Positions 240 to 12,554 of a stretch of DNA of 37,419 nucleotides are shown one piece after another. The notes under the pieces are model-generated. The model worked only from the letters and a program-made list of their open reading frames with translations. It made no database searches and had not been told where the DNA came from. The translations under genes and the position numbers were made by a program. The stretch's first letter is position 1, and each line of letters starts with the position of its first letter. The stretch comes from a virus: the UHGV virus genome UHGV-0125336. One strand, given 5' to 3'.

Positions 240-1244
240 TTAATCCCCCGTGGACACTGCGTGGACACTTACGCCACCTTTCAGCGGATTAAGGGCCACC
301 GCATCCTGCAGGTAATCCGGTGCAAAATGCGCATATGCCATTGTTTGCTGAATGGTTGCGTGACCAAGAATCTTCTGAAGCGCAATAATGTTTCCTCCGT
401 TCATCACAAAATGGCTGGCGAACGTATGCCGCAGCACATGTGCAGCCTGGCCTTTTGGTAAATCGGGCTTAACTCTTTTCAGCGCCAGGCAGAATTCCCG
501 GTACTTCACCTCAAACAAGCCGCCTGTTTCTCTGGTTTTGATCGCCTCACAAACTGCCTGCGAAATTGGCACTGTTCTCTTCCGGCCATTTTTGGTTTCA
601 AGAAACGTTACACGGTTATGAACTATCTGTTCACCACGAAGCTTACAAGCTTCACTCCAGCGCGCCCCTGTGCTTAAACACAAAAGCGCAACACGCCAGT
701 AGTCGCCCTCCAGTGTATCGAGCAATAGCGCCACTTCCTTCTGTGACAGGAACGCCATTTCTCGTGGAGATACATAAAGAATAGAAATTCCCCTTACTGG
801 ATGTTCTGCATCCCAAAGACCTATTTTTTTCAGCACGGTAAACATTCCGGATAACCGATTCATGTACCTGTTAGCAGATGACGGTTTCAATCCTTCAGCT
901 ATCTTTTGAGAACGCCACGCGATAATTTTCAGCTTATCAAGATCCACAGCCTGCATATCAGCGCCAAGCTCATTGATTATGTTGCGCAGTTGTTTTCGGT
1001 CTTCTTCCGCCTTACGCCTGTGCTGGCCGTGATACATCCACCACAACTCAAGCAAATCATTTAGCGTTCGACGATCACGGTAGCCCTGTATATATTCCCG
1101 CTTTTCAGCGTTCGCCATGATGTAGCGTTCAGTGGCCACCGCTACCGATTTTTTGTCAAATACCTTACGCACGCGCTTTCCCTTGCGTCCGTTCGGCCTG
1201 ATGTCCAGCAAATAACGACCATCTTCGAGCTTCTTAATCGACAT
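240..1244 (-). CDS. int: Tyrosine integrase, P2 Int-like (site-specific recombinase)
   Basis: Translation from ATG at 1244 (MSIKKLEDGRY...) matches P2 Int as recalled, including the C-terminal HxLRHTFASH...ILGH...YAHF catalytic region. GGAGGG RBS 8 nt upstream. The ORF-track start at 1259 is probably 5 codons too far upstream. Confidence 0.9.
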   Translation of the reverse strand: MSIKKLEDGRYLLDIRPNGRKGKRVRKVFDKKSVAVATERYIMANAEKREYIQGYRDRRTLNDLLELWWMYHGQHRRKAEEDRKQLRNIINELGADMQAVDLDKLKIIAWRSQKIAEGLKPSSANRYMNRLSGMFTVLKKIGLWDAEHPVRGISILYVSPREMAFLSQKEVALLLDTLEGDYWRVALLCLSTGARWSEACKLRGEQIVHNRVTFLETKNGRKRTVPISQAVCEAIKTRETGGLFEVKYREFCLALKRVKPDLPKGQAAHVLRHTFASHFVMNGGNIIALQKILGHATIQQTMAYAHFAPDYLQDAVALNPLKGGVSVHAVSTGD

Positions 1245-8254: not shown

Positions 8255-9214
8255 ATGAAAATTTGTATCGATGACGGCTCCACCAACATCAAGCTGGCAT
8301 GGACTGAGAACGGCGAACGCCGCAACGCCATCAGCCCGAACAGCTTCAAGTCGGAATGGTCTGCGCCGTTCGGTGGCACGCAGCCCGCGAACTACATGCT
8401 TGATGGCGTGCGCTATGGTTTTGATCCGGTCAGCGATCGCTTTGTCCAGACGACTGACACGCAATACCAGTACAGCGATGTGAATGTCATTGCCATTCAT
8501 CACGCGCTGGTCAAATCAGGCATCACGCCACAGGAGGTGGATGTGGTTGTCACCCTGCCACTGAGCGAGTATTTCGACACAAACGCACAGCCGGACATAG
8601 CCAACATCAACCGCAAAAAAGCGAACGTTATGCGCCCGGTGGAGTACCAGAACGGCGAAGCATTCACTATCCGTAACGTACGGGTTATGCCTGAATCCAT
8701 TCCGGCTGGCTTTAAGGCACTGGCTGACATGAGTCCGTTTGAATCCCTGCTGATTGTGGATTTAGGCGGAACCACGCTGGATGTGGCAAAGGTTCAGGGA
8801 CAACTGGCAGGTATCAGCCAGGTGTTTTGCGATCCACACGTAGGCGTTTCCCTGATGGCCGATGCCGTACTGTCGGTGATGGCCACTAACGGTATGCGTA
8901 CCAGTCACCACATCGCCAATACCATTATCGAACATCGCCATGATGAAGCCTGGCTGCGCCAGCACATCCACAATGACGCGCATTACGCCAGCCTGATGGC
9001 GGTTATTCGTGAAAAGGAAGAAACACTGAAACAACGCGTGATCCGCGCGCTGGCGGGTTTTTCGGGTTACGGGCGGGTGATGGTTGTCGGTGGCGGGGCA
9101 GAGATTGTGGCACCCGCTATCCGCGAAGCCTGCGGAGTTAATGCGACTTTCATCGCGGACGGGGTGCCACAGTTTGCTCTGGTTAATGGGCTGTACGCAA
9201 TGGGCAAGGAGTAA
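8255..9214 (+). CDS. parM: ParM/StbA-like actin-type segregation ATPase
   Basis: Collinear similarity to plasmid R1 ParM as recalled: N-terminal IDDGSTNIKL, YSDVNV..HHAL, KKAN, VMPESIPAG, DLGGTTLD, GVSL, VGGGAE, LVNG. Confidence 0.8.
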   Translation: MKICIDDGSTNIKLAWTENGERRNAISPNSFKSEWSAPFGGTQPANYMLDGVRYGFDPVSDRFVQTTDTQYQYSDVNVIAIHHALVKSGITPQEVDVVVTLPLSEYFDTNAQPDIANINRKKANVMRPVEYQNGEAFTIRNVRVMPESIPAGFKALADMSPFESLLIVDLGGTTLDVAKVQGQLAGISQVFCDPHVGVSLMADAVLSVMATNGMRTSHHIANTIIEHRHDEAWLRQHIHNDAHYASLMAVIREKEETLKQRVIRALAGFSGYGRVMVVGGGAEIVAPAIREACGVNATFIADGVPQFALVNGLYAMGKE

Positions 9215-9218
9215 ACCA

Positions 9219-9530
9219 ATGACGACACCAACCAGACGGATAAGTTTCTATCTGAAGCCCGCCGCCGTCAAGAACGAAGGCGAAGCATGCGCCTGGCTGG
9301 ACAGCCTTACACCAGAAGCCCGCAAAAGTGGTCAACGCGTGGCTTTTCTGGCCGGGCTGGCACTACTGAAAATGAATCCGGCAGAGGCTTACCGACTGGC
9401 TGCATGGGCTGATGATGAGGCGTTATCAATGACACAAACCAGGACAGAACGCCCCGCGTCACAGCCAGTATCAGCCGCACAGATAACCAGTCAGATGGCC
9501 GGAAATATCCGGGCGTTATTTCCCGAATAA
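9219..9530 (+). CDS. parR: ParR-like centromere-binding adaptor
   Basis: ISFYLKPAAV...LDSLTPEARKSGQRVAFLAGLALL...IRALFPE parallels recalled R1 ParR (IAFKLNPDV...LDSIPQGERSRLNRAALTAGLALY...LRSLFPK). AAGGAG RBS, 5 bp after parM. Confidence 0.6.
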   Translation: MTTPTRRISFYLKPAAVKNEGEACAWLDSLTPEARKSGQRVAFLAGLALLKMNPAEAYRLAAWADDEALSMTQTRTERPASQPVSAAQITSQMAGNIRALFPE

Positions 9531-9535
9531 CACAA

Positions 9536-9559
9536 CATCAGGGCGCATCCGCCCTGATG
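9536..9559. promoter_or_regulatory. Perfect 10-bp stem-loop between parR-like and the next gene
   Basis: CATCAGGGCG-CATC-CGCCCTGATG, 6 nt after the parR stop. No T-run follows, so it is a candidate operator or RNA structure, not a clean terminator. Confidence 0.35.
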
Positions 9560-9593
9560 ACTTTAACCCGGGAGCATAAACAAGGGGGACACA

Positions 9594-9926
9594 ATGCAAC
9601 ACATTGACAGAGAAAAAGCGCAGCGACTGATTGAGCGGATGGAAGCGCTGGCGAAAGAAGAAAATGTCAACATCCAAAAAATAGCTGAATGTGGCCAGAT
9701 AGTTCTTCGTCGTGAAAAAGACCTCAAACAACTGATGTCTGGCGAAACCAGCAAAACATGGACTTCAGGCGAGAAGACGGTTTATTGCAGCTTCTGCAAT
9801 AAATCCCAGTACGAAGTCACAAAGGTGATTGCCGGACCGTCTGTTTACATCTGCAATGAGTGCGTGGATTTGTGCAATGAAATTATCAGGAAAGAAGTGA
9901 CAGACAAAAAGGAAAAAAACGCATGA
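9594..9926 (+). CDS. Small protein with a C-terminal ClpX N-terminal zinc-binding-domain (C4) homolog
   Basis: The C-terminal 40 aa ([40 protein letters not shown]) is near-identical in pattern to the E. coli ClpX ZBD as recalled ([40 protein letters not shown]). No AAA+ domain follows. N-terminal 60 aa are helical and unrelated. Confidence 0.7.
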
Positions 9927-10237
9927 ACAGAAAACAGAAACAAGAGTTGAAATACTTCTTACGTAAAGAAATTGCCAGGCTTGAAGATGCAGAGTCACAA
10001 TCATCAGAAATTCCGTTCGGAATGGATATCAACGACGCCCGTATGCTCCAGGCATACCGCATAGCTCAGGCTGCACTACAGGCAAAACCGTCAGATGGAC
10101 TGGTTAGAGCAGTACATTTCTATGAACAGGTAAAGCGTGAGAATCCGCCAGTCGAAACCGGAGCATGGAAAGACGCTGTTGACTGGGTGCTCAAAGAGGC
10201 TTGCCAGTCTGTAAACATTGGCATCAAAGGAGAGTGA
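9923..10237 (+). CDS. Hypothetical protein
   Basis: 104-aa ORF. Start overlaps the upstream stop. Ends ...IGIKGE. Confidence 0.5.
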
Positions 10238-10239
10238 GA

Positions 10240-10731
10240 ATGCAAATTTCACCGGTTACTCTTCGTGTTGCGAAGGCGTTTATATCCAGACATCACCGAC
10301 ACAATAAACCCCCGGTGGGGCATAAATTCAGCATTGGTCTGAGAAATGATGCCGGAGAATTGATAGGTGTGGCGACAGCCGGTAGACCTGTTGCACGACA
10401 TTTGGACGATGGATTAACGCTTGAAGTAAATCGCACATGTACCACAGGAGAACGCAACGCTAACAGCGCGCTTTATGGTGCTGTCTGGCGGGCAGCAAAG
10501 GCTATGGGTTATCAACGTTGTATTACGTACACCCAGGCAGATGAATCAGGAGCATCTCTCCGCGCAGCTGGTTTTGTTCGTGTGAAAGAGCTTCCTCCAA
10601 GAAAAAGCTGGGCGGAATCAAGCGTCGCCCTGCGGAGTAAACGCGATCCGGTCGGAAACGGTGGTGTTCCTCGTGTGCTCTGGGAAATCAGGAGAATGAG
10701 TACCACTGGCATTCGCATCAAAGGAGAGTGA
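10240..10731 (+). CDS. Hypothetical protein
   Basis: 163 aa from ATG 10240, with AAGGAG RBS. Ends ...GIRIKGE. No motif identified with confidence. Confidence 0.5.
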   Translation: MQISPVTLRVAKAFISRHHRHNKPPVGHKFSIGLRNDAGELIGVATAGRPVARHLDDGLTLEVNRTCTTGERNANSALYGAVWRAAKAMGYQRCITYTQADESGASLRAAGFVRVKELPPRKSWAESSVALRSKRDPVGNGGVPRVLWEIRRMSTTGIRIKGE

Positions 10732-10732
10732 T

Positions 10733-10996
10733 ATGGCAACTTTGACAAAAAAAGAACAAGCATGGTTGAGCGAATTACAGGACGTTCTTGATCGCTGTCC
10801 ATCACCGAAAAAAATTGGTTTTTACACCATTGGCGATAAAAGCATTTACCTGTATGACCTGCGCCGCATGGATGAAATCATGGAGGCTCTTGATAATCGT
10901 TCGTCAATGGATTGGTGTGTTGCTGTCCATGATATGAATGCAGGGTTTGATGAAAAGATTTTGTTCCCCTCATCAGTTGAAAGCACAGCAGGATAA
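10733..10996 (+). CDS. Hypothetical protein
   Basis: 87-aa ORF starting 2 nt after the previous stop, behind the same duplicated junction sequence. Confidence 0.5.
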   Translation: MATLTKKEQAWLSELQDVLDRCPSPKKIGFYTIGDKSIYLYDLRRMDEIMEALDNRSSMDWCVAVHDMNAGFDEKILFPSSVESTAG

Positions 10997-11040
10997 GGAC
11001 CCAGCAAATATACACAACCTATAAAACACTAAAGCGCCTC

Positions 11041-11065
11041 AGGGGCGCTTTTTGTTTGCACAAAA
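11041..11065 (+). terminator. Intrinsic terminator closing the accessory operon
   Basis: AGCGCC-TCAG-GGGCGCT hairpin followed by TTTTTGTTT. Confidence 0.55.
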
Positions 11066-11091
11066 GTGCACAAATTTGCACAATTTTTTTG
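11065..11091. repeat. Three TGCACAA direct repeats at exact 10-bp phasing
   Basis: TGCACAA at 11065, 11075 and 11085, with a fourth copy at 11149. Candidate protein-binding array beside the cos region. Confidence 0.4.
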
Positions 11092-11099
11092 AACGACTT

Positions 11100-11507
11100 T
11101 TTACCCTTCCGGCCCGCATGGCGGCTGGATCCGTCAAGGATCCGTGCGTGCACAAAAAAACGCGCTTTTTCTGCGCGCAGGTGACGGGGGAACAGCCCGC
11201 GTTTCAGGGGGTAAATAGCATCCCCTGAACGATGTCGCAGCGACACAACAGAATGGCTGTATTTCTCACGCTGAGCGTGAAAAAGACGTGAGGGCTTTTG
11301 ATTTGATGGAGTGGAAGATAAGGCCGTCAAAATCGCACTGAGGCGGCGAGAACATGCAGTCAACGCGGTGGGATTGTGTAAGAGTCTGACTGTCGATGAT
11401 GGCAATCAGCAGGAAAGCATCGTGAAATTATCTGACTGATACAGGAGCTGGAGAGTCGGGGCATAAATTTTTTATGCCCCGGCGAAGCAGCAGACAAGCG
11501 AAGCGCG
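11100..11507. other. Putative cos / packaging region
   Basis: About 400 bp non-coding between the accessory operon terminator and the Q stop, matching the P2 cos position. GC-rich, several hairpins (11161-11180, 11202-11232, 11453-11478). Exact cohesive end not identified. Confidence 0.3.
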
Positions 11508-12554
11508 TCAGGATGTGGGCTGGGTGTCTAACAGTGCGTAAGGGTTAAAGCGGATCACCTCTTCGCCAAGCCAGTCATTGATGTGCTTCATGGCCTCCAT
11601 GACGGGCATCAGCTCGTTAATTGCGTAAACCCGCGCGGCCTTCTCCACATCACCAAACGCACTTTTTTCGCCCGGCATCGCCCCCATCAGTTGCGGCGGA
11701 ACGCGGTGCGCAGCCAGCACATCATCACGGGATGCCGCCTTAACATTCATGAACTCATCCTTTGCGGTGATCTGCTGGAACGGCAAAATTTGCACCCCCT
11801 CTTTGCCCCCGTTAGGCGCATGAATGAGCACGTTTTTAAACGCACCACCACCACGTGCCCCCTGTAGCGTTTCTTTCAGGGAGTCCATGCTTTCGCGGTT
11901 TACCTGCGCTGCACCGATGTAGATGATGCACCCGGCGTGGGATCCATTGTCGTAATACAGTTTTCTGAACATGTCCGCCGAATGAGACAGGCTGGCCGAG
12001 AGTAATGCGCCGAGATATTCCGGCATGCCGTAGATTTCCTGGTTAATGTCAGGATTCATCAGGTGGCACACTTTGCCAGGGCGAAACTGAAACGCGTCCT
12101 TGCCATCCTGCACATACCACCATGATTCAAGATCGCTTCCGCGTCGCATGTATTTCGCCAGGGCGTGCCGTAATTTAAGCGGTTCGCCGAGCATATTGCT
12201 TCGAAGCTCAAGGAATGCGTTACCGAACACAAACCAGTCCAGCGCCAGCGCCGAGAAATCCTGCCGGGAAAGCAACGGGTGCGGGATGTAGCAACCGAGT
12301 AATACATTGCGCTTAAAGTAAAGCGCAGACTGATGCCAGGACGTTTGCCGGGCAGCTCTTGCCAGACCGTACCAGTCCACCGGGGTTTCATACCACCGCC
12401 CGTTATCAGCACAGTACATATTGTCCAGCAGGTCATGCCCGGTCAGGCGATAAGGACCATCAAATGTGAATGCACTGAGCGATGATTCTTTCCTGAGCGC
12501 ATCAGCGAGATCAATGCGTGAACTCATGCGCACTTTTTTATTTTTTCTGCTCAT
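11508..12554 (-). CDS. Q: Portal protein, P2 gpQ-like
   Basis: 348-aa ORF with P2-typical position and orientation (Q and P leftward, divergent from O). Confidence 0.85.
   Translation of the reverse strand: MSRKNKKVRMSSRIDLADALRKESSLSAFTFDGPYRLTGHDLLDNMYCADNGRWYETPVDWYGLARAARQTSWHQSALYFKRNVLLGCYIPHPLLSRQDFSALALDWFVFGNAFLELRSNMLGEPLKLRHALAKYMRRGSDLESWWYVQDGKDAFQFRPGKVCHLMNPDINQEIYGMPEYLGALLSASLSHSADMFRKLYYDNGSHAGCIIYIGAAQVNRESMDSLKETLQGARGGGAFKNVLIHAPNGGKEGVQILPFQQITAKDEFMNVKAASRDDVLAAHRVPPQLMGAMPGEKSAFGDVEKAARVYAINELMPVMEAMKHINDWLGEEVIRFNPYALLDTQPTS

What the first reader, a model, noticed from the sequence alone, without database searches (positions are those of the whole stretch)
10220..10735. 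Duplicated 17-bp gene junction giving two adjacent proteins the same -IKGE C-terminus
GCATCAAAGGAGAGTGA occurs at 10221-10237 and 10715-10731. Each copy encodes the last residues and stop of one gene and supplies the AGGAG RBS for the next. This points to modular cassette shuffling at a conserved junction. It also leaves two proteins, directly downstream of the ClpX-ZBD mimic, with a shared C-terminal tag that could be a recognition signal.
Basis: seen in the sequence. Interest (0 to 1): 0.5.

Follow-up and report, generated by a model that had tools for sequence, protein, structure and literature searches.

The report
Shared gene-junction adapter in phage cassettes
The repeated 17 bases are two copies of a roughly 30-base junction (end of one gene, ribosome-binding site, stop, start of the next) that E. 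coli phages, including lambda, reuse between swappable accessory genes; the shared -IKGE protein tail is most likely just that junction being translated.

Summary
GCATCAAAGGAGAGTGA occurs exactly twice (10221-10237 and 10715-10731; 0 of 100 shuffles gave two). The copies are 494 bp apart and bracket one gene, a Mom-like/XF1762 GNAT-fold protein, in the variable region of a P2-like prophage.

The sequence is not special to this locus. It is the 3' end of phage lambda's own ea22 gene, and about 40% of complete E. coli genomes carry it, up to 11 places each. In more than 120 viral contigs it joins at least 13 upstream protein families to at least 19 downstream families, in 32 combinations. Between unrelated flanks, only about 30 bp are alike.

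On the same P2-like backbone, the site between the same two flanking genes holds no insert, XF1762 (+494 bp), or an Ea22-like gene (+415 or +442 bp). The predicted precise deletion product exists.

The tail looks like a by-product. The GGAG core is kept in every variant, with Gly never GGC or GGT. The tail is absent from 116 of 120 XF1762 homologue clusters and is modelled as disordered. A ClpX zinc-finger gene accompanies it in only 3 of 120 loci.

Cassette shuffling is supported. The ClpX-tag idea is not supported, though it is not experimentally excluded. This is a known kind of feature: a conserved boundary sequence of mosaic phages.

The parts
10216..10242 (+). Adapter copy 1 (type A: CATTGGCATCAAAGGAGAGTGA + GA + ATG). 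It holds the last 7 codons and stop of the 104-aa gene, the Shine-Dalgarno (SD) sequence AAGGAG at 10227-10232, the stop at 10235-10237 and the start of the next gene at 10240.
   Evidence: The same type-A end (..V[ND]IGIKGE*) occurs in the TUM13770, AZ184 and 689R5 proteins.
10710..10735 (+). Adapter copy 2 (type B: CATTCGCATCAAAGGAGAGTGA + T + ATG). It holds the last codons and stop of the XF1762 gene, the SD AAGGAG at 10721-10726, the stop at 10729-10731 and the start of the 87-aa gene at 10733. It is identical to the 3' end of lambda ea22.
10240..10731 (+). The cargo cassette between the two adapters: a 163-aa XF1762-family, Mom-like GNAT-fold protein. Residues about 152-163 (RMSTTGIRIKGE) are the grafted adapter tail.
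   Evidence: NCBIfam XF1762_fam scores 204.7 bits against a cut-off of 50 and covers aa 3-136. PHROG 1384 is 'Mom-like DNA modification protein'. The AF2 model has mean pLDDT 84, with the tail below 50. The best PDB match is Mu Mom 8bv8, TM 0.70. 116 of 120 homologue clusters lack the tail.
9923..10237 (+). The 104-aa gene upstream of adapter 1. It is itself mosaic: the last ~48 codons (10092-10237) form a module shared with many Ea22-like proteins of lambdoid phages.
   Evidence: Many BLAST hits start at query 497-504, which is window 10090-10097. The TUM13770 143-aa and 689R5 119-aa proteins share only this C-terminal module. There is no Pfam or NCBIfam hit.
10733..10996 (+). The 87-aa gene downstream of adapter 2 (PHROG 1714, unknown function). 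This cassette has at least 10 different upstream partners in other phages.
   Evidence: (family D0).
9594..9926 (+). A 110-aa protein with a ClpX-type C4 zinc finger. It belongs to the same accessory array but is not specifically linked to the adapter.
   Evidence: Pfam zf-C4_ClpX, E = 6.8e-18. A homologue is present in only 3 of 120 adapter-bearing viral loci, where it is itself a cassette that follows an adapter (family D9, 30).
11031..11051 (+). Terminator-like hairpin that closes the accessory-gene operon.

Best explanation
The two 17-mers are two copies of a widespread inter-cistronic adapter about 30 bp long, consensus GCTGGCATTCGCATCAAAGGAGAGTGAnATG. Its type copy is the 3' end of lambda ea22. 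The adapter carries four things: the last 5-9 codons of whatever gene lies upstream, a strong Shine-Dalgarno (SD) sequence AAGGAG, the stop codon, and the next gene's ATG 1-2 nt later.

Single-gene cassettes of the early accessory ('exo-xis/ea') arrays of E. coli temperate phages are joined by this adapter. Here such an array sits in the variable region of a P2-like prophage, between the ParM/StbB genes and the portal gene. The adapters bracket a Mom-like XF1762 cassette.

Shown: the adapter is a mosaic boundary shared by unrelated gene pairs, and this site has empty and alternative-cargo alleles.

Inferred: (i) the adapter provides ribosome binding and stop-start coupling for the downstream cistron; (ii) it acts as a short homology patch. 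Recombination within it, most plausibly by phage single-strand-annealing recombinases such as Red-beta or RecT, swaps cassettes in register, so every recombinant keeps a proper stop and a proper start.

On this reading the identical -IKGE tail is the translated adapter (AAA-GGA-GAG = K-G-E), a by-product rather than a tag.
For: - **Lambda origin.** Lambda ea22 ends with gctggcattcGCATCAAAGGAGAGTGA.
- **Combinatorial partners.** 131 occurrences in 120 viral loci join 13 upstream families to 19 downstream families in 32 combinations. For 2578 pairs with unrelated flanks on both sides, identity is 72-96% only from -9 to +21 around the 17-mer and 20-35% elsewhere. Anchoring on the 87-aa gene gives at least 10 upstream partners.
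- **Breakpoints at the adapter.** P88 matches only up to window ~10233. Kapi1 shares XF1762 up to GAGTGA and then diverges. TUM13770 matches the left side of J1 and the right side of J2.
- **Allelic series on one backbone.** The synthetic J1xJ2 deletion product is found as one 1013-bp contiguous match at 98.9% (H90-92). The same flanks hold inserts of +494 bp (XF1762) and +415 or +442 bp (Ea22-like); a further arrangement (+416 bp on a backbone matching only query 1-913) carries a 64-aa gene plus DUF4014.
- **Tandem adapters recur.** 14 of 120 loci have two or more adapters 494-921 bp apart.
- **Nucleotide-level constraint.** KGE is the commonest ORF end in these loci (123 of 5171). All variants keep AAAGGAGA. 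Across 2.9 M viral contigs Gly is GGA or GGG, never GGC or GGT, so GGAG is always kept. The same DNA is read in another frame in L026.
- **Tail is a graft.** It is absent from 116 of 120 XF1762 homologue clusters and has pLDDT below 50.
[quoted passage not shown] Recombinase genes sit next to these arrays in lambda and Kapi1.
- **Prevalence.** The adapter is in 2165 of 5426 complete E. coli genomes, up to 11 places per genome.
Against: - No recombination event was observed; the mechanism is inferred from comparative patterns.
- The two copies in this window share only 17 exact bases (22 with one mismatch), below the published MEPS values. This particular cassette could have moved through the longer flanking homologies: the 148-bp C-terminal module of the 104-aa gene and the 264-bp 87-aa gene.
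- The ~10 nt upstream of the SD (GCTGGCATTC) are not needed for ribosome binding, and their conservation is also compatible with a peptide function.
- A diverged adapter lineage (AAGISIKGE*, GGCATCAGCATCAAGGGGGAGTGA) differs by 3 synonymous and 1 non-synonymous change. This hints weakly at peptide-level constraint.
Confidence: 0.7

Rival explanations
1. The adapter is passive. It is conserved only because it is a good translation-initiation and termination signal and a relic of an ancestral Ea22 C-terminus. Cassettes actually move by recombination in longer flanking gene homologies, or by illegitimate recombination followed by selection for intact genes.
For: Donor-like elements carry the whole trio of C-terminal module, XF1762 and the 87-aa gene at 97-99% identity (H2 and H43). 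The empty allele (AZ184) offers 148 bp plus 264 bp of flanking homology. J1 and J2 share only 17-22 bp. P88 shows an illegitimate deletion that starts inside the adapter. The illegitimate-recombination model is a standard view (PMC3233612).
Against: Among 2578 pairs with unrelated sequence on both sides, about 30 bp remain near-identical, far more than the 6-8 nt an SD needs. With no flanking homology in those pairs, something must keep or spread the extra bases. 32 partner combinations share the same joint.
Confidence: 0.2
2. The tail (A/T)GIRIKGE is a functional C-terminal peptide, such as a degron, an adaptor-binding signal or a ClpX-related signal. It would place many unrelated early phage proteins under common control.
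For: The tail is conserved on unrelated proteins. Bases upstream of the SD are also conserved. The diverged lineage keeps the peptide with 3 synonymous changes against 1 non-synonymous. The +GE motif of Ea22 proteins was noted as being of unknown significance (PMC7093339). A ClpX-ZBD gene is in the same array here.
Against: Gly is never encoded by GGC or GGT, and Lys-Gly-Glu is almost always AAA-GGA-GAG, so the conserved object is GGAG. Amino-acid variants of the tail are common (D, V or S for G; C or G for R; TKGD, HGKGE). The same DNA is read in another frame in L026. The tail is absent from 116 of 120 XF1762 homologue clusters and from P88, which keeps the ClpX-ZBD gene. A ClpX-ZBD gene is present in only 3 of 120 loci. 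An acidic C-terminus is unlike the known ClpX C-terminal motifs, LAA-type and RRKKAI-type (own knowledge of Flynn et al. 2003).
Confidence: 0.07
3. The repeats are sites of a site-specific cassette system, like integron attC sites, or a structured RNA element.
For: Direct repeats flank single-gene cassettes, and tandem cassettes occur.
Against: Neither copy has an inverted-repeat arm, and there is no folding signal (z = 0.28, 0.02 and 1.0). There is no Rfam match. No dedicated recombinase lies next to the arrays; the only tyrosine integrase is the prophage's own, about 9 kb away. The joint is in-frame coding sequence.
Confidence: 0.02
4. The pair is a chance repeat or a local duplication private to this genome.
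For: None beyond the short length.
Against: 0 of 100 shuffles gave two matches. Each copy belongs to a separately conserved subtype that is found in many other phages.
Confidence: 0.01

Closest known systems
Short conserved boundary ('linker') sequences at module junctions of lambdoid phages (Susskind & Botstein 1978; Clark et al. 2001, HK620; summarised in PMC3233612 and PMC2327257)
   Same: A short conserved sequence sits exactly at a gene boundary. It is flanked by unrelated modules in different phages, and homology breakpoints fall on it. The proposed role is as a target for homologous recombination that creates mosaics.
   Different: This adapter lies inside the coding 3' end, so it imposes a common protein tail, and it includes the SD, stop and start. 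It is shared across phage types: lambdoid, P22-like (Kapi1), P2-like (this window, P88 relatives) and P1/P7-like or other plasmid prophages. I did not find this specific sequence described in the held literature.
The '+GE' C-terminal motif of Ea22 proteins (Dydecka et al. 2020, PMC7093339)
   Same: It is the same tripeptide (K/R-G-E) at the end of otherwise divergent Ea22 proteins. Lambda Ea22 ends ...DAGIRIKGE with the identical DNA.
   Different: That paper treats it as a protein motif of unknown significance within Ea22. Here the motif also occurs on non-Ea22 proteins (XF1762, an HNH/AP2-like protein, small proteins) and tracks an invariant AAAGGAGAGTGA. It is therefore better explained as an in-frame Shine-Dalgarno junction.
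Integron gene cassettes and attC sites
   Same: Arrays of single promoter-less genes separated by a recurring short element, with variable cargo at one site.
   Different: There is no attC hairpin, no integron integrase, the joint is in-frame coding DNA, and exchange is presumably by homologous recombination rather than site-specific recombination.
The variable accessory region of P2-like phages between the replication genes and the portal gene (tin/old region of P2; own knowledge)
   Same: Same genome position, and the same behaviour as a hot spot for foreign, non-essential genes.
   Different: Here the cargo is a lambdoid-type ea-array segment with its adapters, so the P2-like phage draws on the lambdoid accessory-gene pool.

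Membership tests
Conserved boundary/linker sequence of mosaic temperate phages | Short conserved sequence at a gene boundary between otherwise unrelated sequences | tested here: met
   2578 pairs with unrelated flanks on both sides show 72-96% identity only from -9 to +21 around the 17-mer and 20-35% elsewhere.
Conserved boundary/linker sequence of mosaic temperate phages | Different combinations of flanking modules joined by the same sequence | tested here: met
   13 upstream families, 19 downstream families and 32 combinations. The 87-aa gene has at least 10 upstream partners.
Conserved boundary/linker sequence of mosaic temperate phages | Homology breakpoints between related genomes coincide with it | tested here: met
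   Shown for P88, Kapi1, TUM13770 and U13A. The precise J1xJ2 product and alternative inserts occur on one backbone.
Conserved boundary/linker sequence of mosaic temperate phages | Homologous recombination actually occurs within it | not testable with these tools
   Only inferred. The ~27-30 bp length is comparable to the published MEPS of 23-27 bp (Red-beta) and 31-34 bp (RecA) (PMC3945230).
Translationally coupled junction with embedded Shine-Dalgarno | An SD complementary to the 16S 3' end lies 5-9 nt before the start, and the upstream stop lies within a few nt of the start | tested here: met
   AAGGAG lies 7 nt (J1) and 6 nt (J2) before the ATG. The junctions read TGA-GA-ATG and TGA-T-ATG. 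99 of 115 downstream ORFs start 1 nt after the stop. Function is inferred, not measured.
Ead/Ea22-like family (Pfam Ead_Ea22 / IPR025153) | Match to the family profile (N-terminal segment plus coiled coil) | tested here: not met
   The 104-aa and 163-aa proteins have no Ead_Ea22 hit in Pfam or NCBIfam. They share only the adapter tail, and for the 104-aa protein a C-terminal module, with Ea22-annotated proteins.
ClpX C-terminal recognition signals | C-terminal motif resembling the ssrA-type (..LAA) or MuA-type (RRKKAI) signals | tested here: not met
   The tail ends ..IKGE, an acidic C-terminus. The motif definitions come from my own knowledge of Flynn et al. 2003, not from a tool.
ClpX C-terminal recognition signals | ClpXP-dependent degradation or binding | not testable with these tools
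   This needs stability assays. Co-occurrence of the tail with a ClpX-ZBD gene is only 3 of 120 loci.
Integron attC cassette site | Imperfect inverted repeats that fold into a hairpin, plus an adjacent IntI integrase | tested here: not met
   Folding z-scores are 0.02-1.0, no inverted repeat lies at either copy, and there is no Rfam hit.
XF1762 / Mom-like GNAT family (the cargo gene) | Profile match above the curated cut-off, and a GNAT/Mom fold | tested here: met
   NF045478 scores 204.7 bits against a cut-off of 50. PHROG 1384 matches at E = 4e-42. The top Foldseek hit is Mu Mom 8bv8, TM 0.70. The Pfam Mom hit is below threshold, 22.4 against 27.1.

The most novel reading that the evidence does not exclude
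The 7-9-residue tail (A/T)GIRIKGE is not only a translated ribosome-binding site. It is a functional C-terminal peptide that places dozens of unrelated early accessory proteins of temperate phages under one common control, such as proteolysis, an adaptor or an assembly partner, possibly connected to phage-encoded ClpX zinc-finger proteins. The weak excess of synonymous change in a diverged adapter lineage, and the conservation of bases upstream of the SD, leave this open.
Probability: 0.07. Interest if true: 0.65.

Novelty: new member of a known kind. Interest (0 to 1): 0.33.

Why it matters
This gives an unusually clean, very common example of a conserved boundary sequence. It is present in about 40% of complete E. 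coli genomes, up to 11 places each. It crosses phage families: lambdoid, P22-like, P2-like and plasmid prophages.

It offers a simple explanation for the '+GE' end of Ea22 proteins, which the literature lists as unexplained. It also provides a tractable system for an old question in phage evolution: are mosaic joints made by recombination targeted to short linkers, or by random illegitimate events filtered by selection?

Practically, it warns annotators and motif hunters that a shared C-terminal peptide can be an in-frame Shine-Dalgarno sequence. It also marks where accessory and anti-defence cargo, here a Mom-like DNA-modification candidate, is swapped between prophages.

Tried and rejected
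- **RNA element.** An Rfam scan of 9000-11600 at E <= 1 found nothing. RNA folding of both junctions and of the lambda copy gave no signal, with z from 0.02 to 1.0. Structured-RNA and attC readings were dropped.
- **Family assignment.** Pfam and NCBIfam gave no family for the 104-aa and 87-aa proteins. PHROGs gave only families of unknown function.
- **Codon test design.** My first design of 'SD-breaking' synonymous variants (GGB for Gly, AAG for Lys) was partly flawed, because GGG and AAG-GGA still contain GGAG. The useful result is that GGC and GGT never occur.
- **Species-level scan.** The genome-contig scan was meant to give host range. It returned mostly lambda DNA contamination of unrelated assemblies, so it says only that genuine hits are Escherichia and close relatives.
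- **ClpX link.** Co-occurrence with a ClpX-ZBD gene was tested and found rare, 3 of 120 loci.
- **Literature.** Searches for the tail or junction sequence found no phage paper.
- **Hybrid adapters.** I considered reading the hybrid adapters (AAGIGIKGE, VVNIRIKGE) as crossovers within the adapter. A single G/C point change explains them equally well, so I do not count them as evidence.

Full report
**Observation.** The 17-mer GCATCAAAGGAGAGTGA occurs at 10221-10237 and 10715-10731 and nowhere else in the window, even with two mismatches allowed. None of 100 dinucleotide-preserving shuffles gave two copies. The repeat extends to 22 nt with one mismatch (CATT[G/C]GCATCAAAGGAGAGTGA), and the spacing is 494 bp. 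Copy 1 ends the 104-aa ORF 9923-10237 (...NIGIKGE*). Copy 2 ends the 163-aa ORF 10240-10731 (...GIRIKGE*). In each copy AAGGAG lies 6-7 nt before the next ATG, and the stop lies 1-2 nt before it.

**Context.** The window is a P2-like prophage, 100% identical over the queried region (9594-11100) to Escherichia phage PhiR44_2. The + strand carries, in order: replication protein, ParM, StbB, a ClpX-type zinc-finger protein (9594-9926), the 104-aa gene, the 163-aa gene, an 87-aa gene (10733-10996) and a terminator (11031-11051). The portal gene follows on the other strand. The bracketed gene is an XF1762-family protein (204.7 bits against a cut-off of 50). It matches the PHROG 'Mom-like DNA modification protein'. 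Its model (mean pLDDT 84) best matches phage Mu Mom (8bv8, TM 0.70) and then GNAT acetyltransferases.

**The junction is not local.**
- Phage lambda's own ea22 ends with gctggcattcGCATCAAAGGAGAGTGA, giving ...DAGIRIKGE*.
- In the 131 occurrences, ORFs that end at the junction fall into 13 protein families. These include Ea22-like proteins, XF1762, an HNH/AP2-like protein and small proteins.
- ORFs that start after the junction fall into 19 families, and 32 combinations occur. Of 115 downstream ORFs, 99 start 1 nt after the stop.
- For 2578 pairs whose flanks are unrelated on both sides, identity is at background (about 20-35%) except from -9 to +21 relative to the 17-mer, where it is 72-96%. 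This is an island of about 30 bp.
- Anchoring on the 87-aa gene instead of the 17-mer gives at least 10 different upstream partners among 79 near-identical copies. About 52 use this adapter, and 25 use another SD-bearing end (...PYKEN*, AAGGAAAACTGAT).
- The adapter is in 2165 of 5426 complete E. coli genomes at 80% or more coverage of a 35-nt probe, with up to 11 places per genome and some on plasmids.
- Fourteen of 120 viral loci carry two or more adapters 494-921 bp apart, which is one gene each.

**Breakpoints and alleles.** P88 matches the window only up to about 10233. There the adapter is truncated and fused to another gene end (...IKGDLAQPASKL*). Kapi1 shares XF1762 up to GAGTGA and then diverges. 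I built the product expected from recombination between copy 1 and copy 2 and searched for it. It exists as one contiguous 1013-bp match at 98.9% in three genomes (H90-92; in AZ184 the order is ClpX-ZBD | 104 aa | 87 aa). Between the same flanks, other genomes have +494 bp (XF1762) or +415 or +442 bp (an Ea22-like gene ending ...MLHGKGE*, with the upstream gene ending ...NIGTKGD*). In others a 64-aa gene plus DUF4014 fills the site (+416 bp, on a backbone matching only query 1-913), or a different gene follows directly after copy 1. Cassette exchange at this site is therefore documented on one backbone.

**Tag or junction?**
- KGE is by far the commonest ORF end in these loci (123 of 5171, against 54 for the next). 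Even tails that lack the 17-mer keep AAAGGAGA(G/C/T)TGA.
- I scanned 2.9 M viral contigs for G-I-[R/S]-I-K-G-E-stop encoded with other codons. GAA for Glu, which keeps the SD, occurs in 50 loci. GGG occurs in 5 and AAG-GGA in 1, and both still contain GGAG. GGC and GGT never occur. The invariant object is the Shine-Dalgarno core, not the peptide.
- In L026 the same DNA is read in another frame by a truncated Ea22 (...THQRRVI*).
- XF1762 homologues share a core that ends ...RVLWEI(R/K) and usually stop 1-4 residues later. Only 4 of 120 cluster representatives end in KG[ED].
- The family profile stops at residue 136, and residues 157-163 have pLDDT below 50.
- A ClpX-ZBD homologue is present in only 3 of 120 adapter-bearing viral loci, where it is itself a cassette following an adapter. 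P88 keeps the ZBD gene without the tail.
- There is no Rfam family and no unusual folding at the junction.

**Residual doubt.** The roughly 10 nt upstream of the SD are also conserved. A diverged adapter (GGCATCAGCATCAAGGGGGAGTGATGG, AAGISIKGE*) found on three different proteins differs by three synonymous changes and one non-synonymous change. Both facts fit a homology patch spread by recombination, but they do not exclude some peptide-level role. Also, the two copies in this window share only 17-22 bp. That is below the published MEPS values of 23-27 bp for Red-beta and 31-34 bp for RecA (PMC3945230). This particular cassette may therefore have moved through the longer flanking modules, since donor-like elements carry the whole trio at 97-99% identity.

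**Comparison with what is known.** The pattern fits the 'short conserved boundary sequences' model of phage mosaicism (Susskind & Botstein 1978; Clark et al. 2001, as cited in PMC3233612 and PMC2327257). Dydecka et al. 2020 noted that all Ea22 proteins end in K/R-G-E, 'significance unknown' (PMC7093339). The present data explain that motif as an in-frame SD junction that is not restricted to Ea22. No held paper mentions the sequence itself.

**Verdict.** The finding is real and well explained, and it is a new member of a known kind. The cassette-shuffling reading is supported. The ClpX-tag reading is not supported. The recombination mechanism remains inferred.

Noticed in passing
L187-L224 (genome-contig hits): 32-33 of 38 species-representative genomes that contain the junction are 99-100% identical to phage lambda over the whole overlap. 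They include Streptomyces, Bacillus, Prevotella, Shewanella, Pseudomonas and Streptococcus equinus. Many hits are ~1-kb, ~1x-coverage contigs, and several are ~48.4-48.5-kb contigs. This is lambda DNA contamination of the assemblies, not real hosts.
   Followed up: yes
window 10092-10237 (inside the 104-aa gene): There is a second mosaic joint inside the 104-aa gene. Many phage and E. coli hits begin at query 497-504. The last ~48 codons ([34 protein letters not shown]..) form a module fused to different N-terminal parts in other phages, such as the 143-aa protein of TUM13770 and the 119-aa protein of 689R5.
   Followed up: partly
L125 (P88) 2130-2468; L129 and L130 last array gene: In P88 the adapter is cut after GCATCAAAGGAGA and fused to the end of another cassette (...IKGDLAQPASKL*), which removes all downstream cassettes. 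That other gene end (cctGCATCAAAGctatag) shares the 9-mer GCATCAAAG with the adapter, read in a different frame.
   Followed up: partly
L124 (lambda) 520-560, minus strand: In lambda itself the adapter after ea22 is followed by GATCGG and about 190 nt of non-coding DNA before ea8.5. The Shine-Dalgarno there is orphaned, which looks like a deletion scar of a former downstream cassette.
   Followed up: no
L132, L134, L135 (metagenome viral contigs); XF1762 homologues P0021, P0033, P0034, P0006: Other versions of the adapter tail exist. AAGISIKGE* (GGCATCAGCATCAAGGGGGAGTGATGG) occurs on three different proteins. AAGIKVEVK*, AAGIQVIEGEDGE* and TTAGIKLQIEGE* occur after the XF1762 core in Klebsiella, Salmonella and Enterobacter. 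These may be genus-specific adapters.
   Followed up: partly
window 10240-10731: The cargo is a Mom-like GNAT-fold protein. The best PDB match is phage Mu Mom 8bv8, and the family has 5662 homologues at E <= 1e-5. It may be a DNA-modification or anti-restriction function carried as a mobile cassette. Its function was not investigated.
   Followed up: partly
window 11045-11090: Just after the operon terminator there is a run of TGCACAA-like repeats and an overlapping palindrome (tttgcacaaaagtgcacaaatttgcacaatttt; I5). It is conserved in P88, AZ184 and TUM13770. It could be a protein-binding site in the region before the portal gene.
   Followed up: no
L003 (phage 689R5), L126 (Kapi1), U13A cargo, downstream families D2, D14, D15 and D18: Many genes that follow the adapter begin with a similar N-terminus (M-[TSN]-[TA]-[IF]-T-[KD]-[EK]...) and contain an ALASLEAEP-like motif. 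For Ea22-like cassettes the conserved joint may therefore extend into the 5' end of the downstream gene.
   Followed up: no
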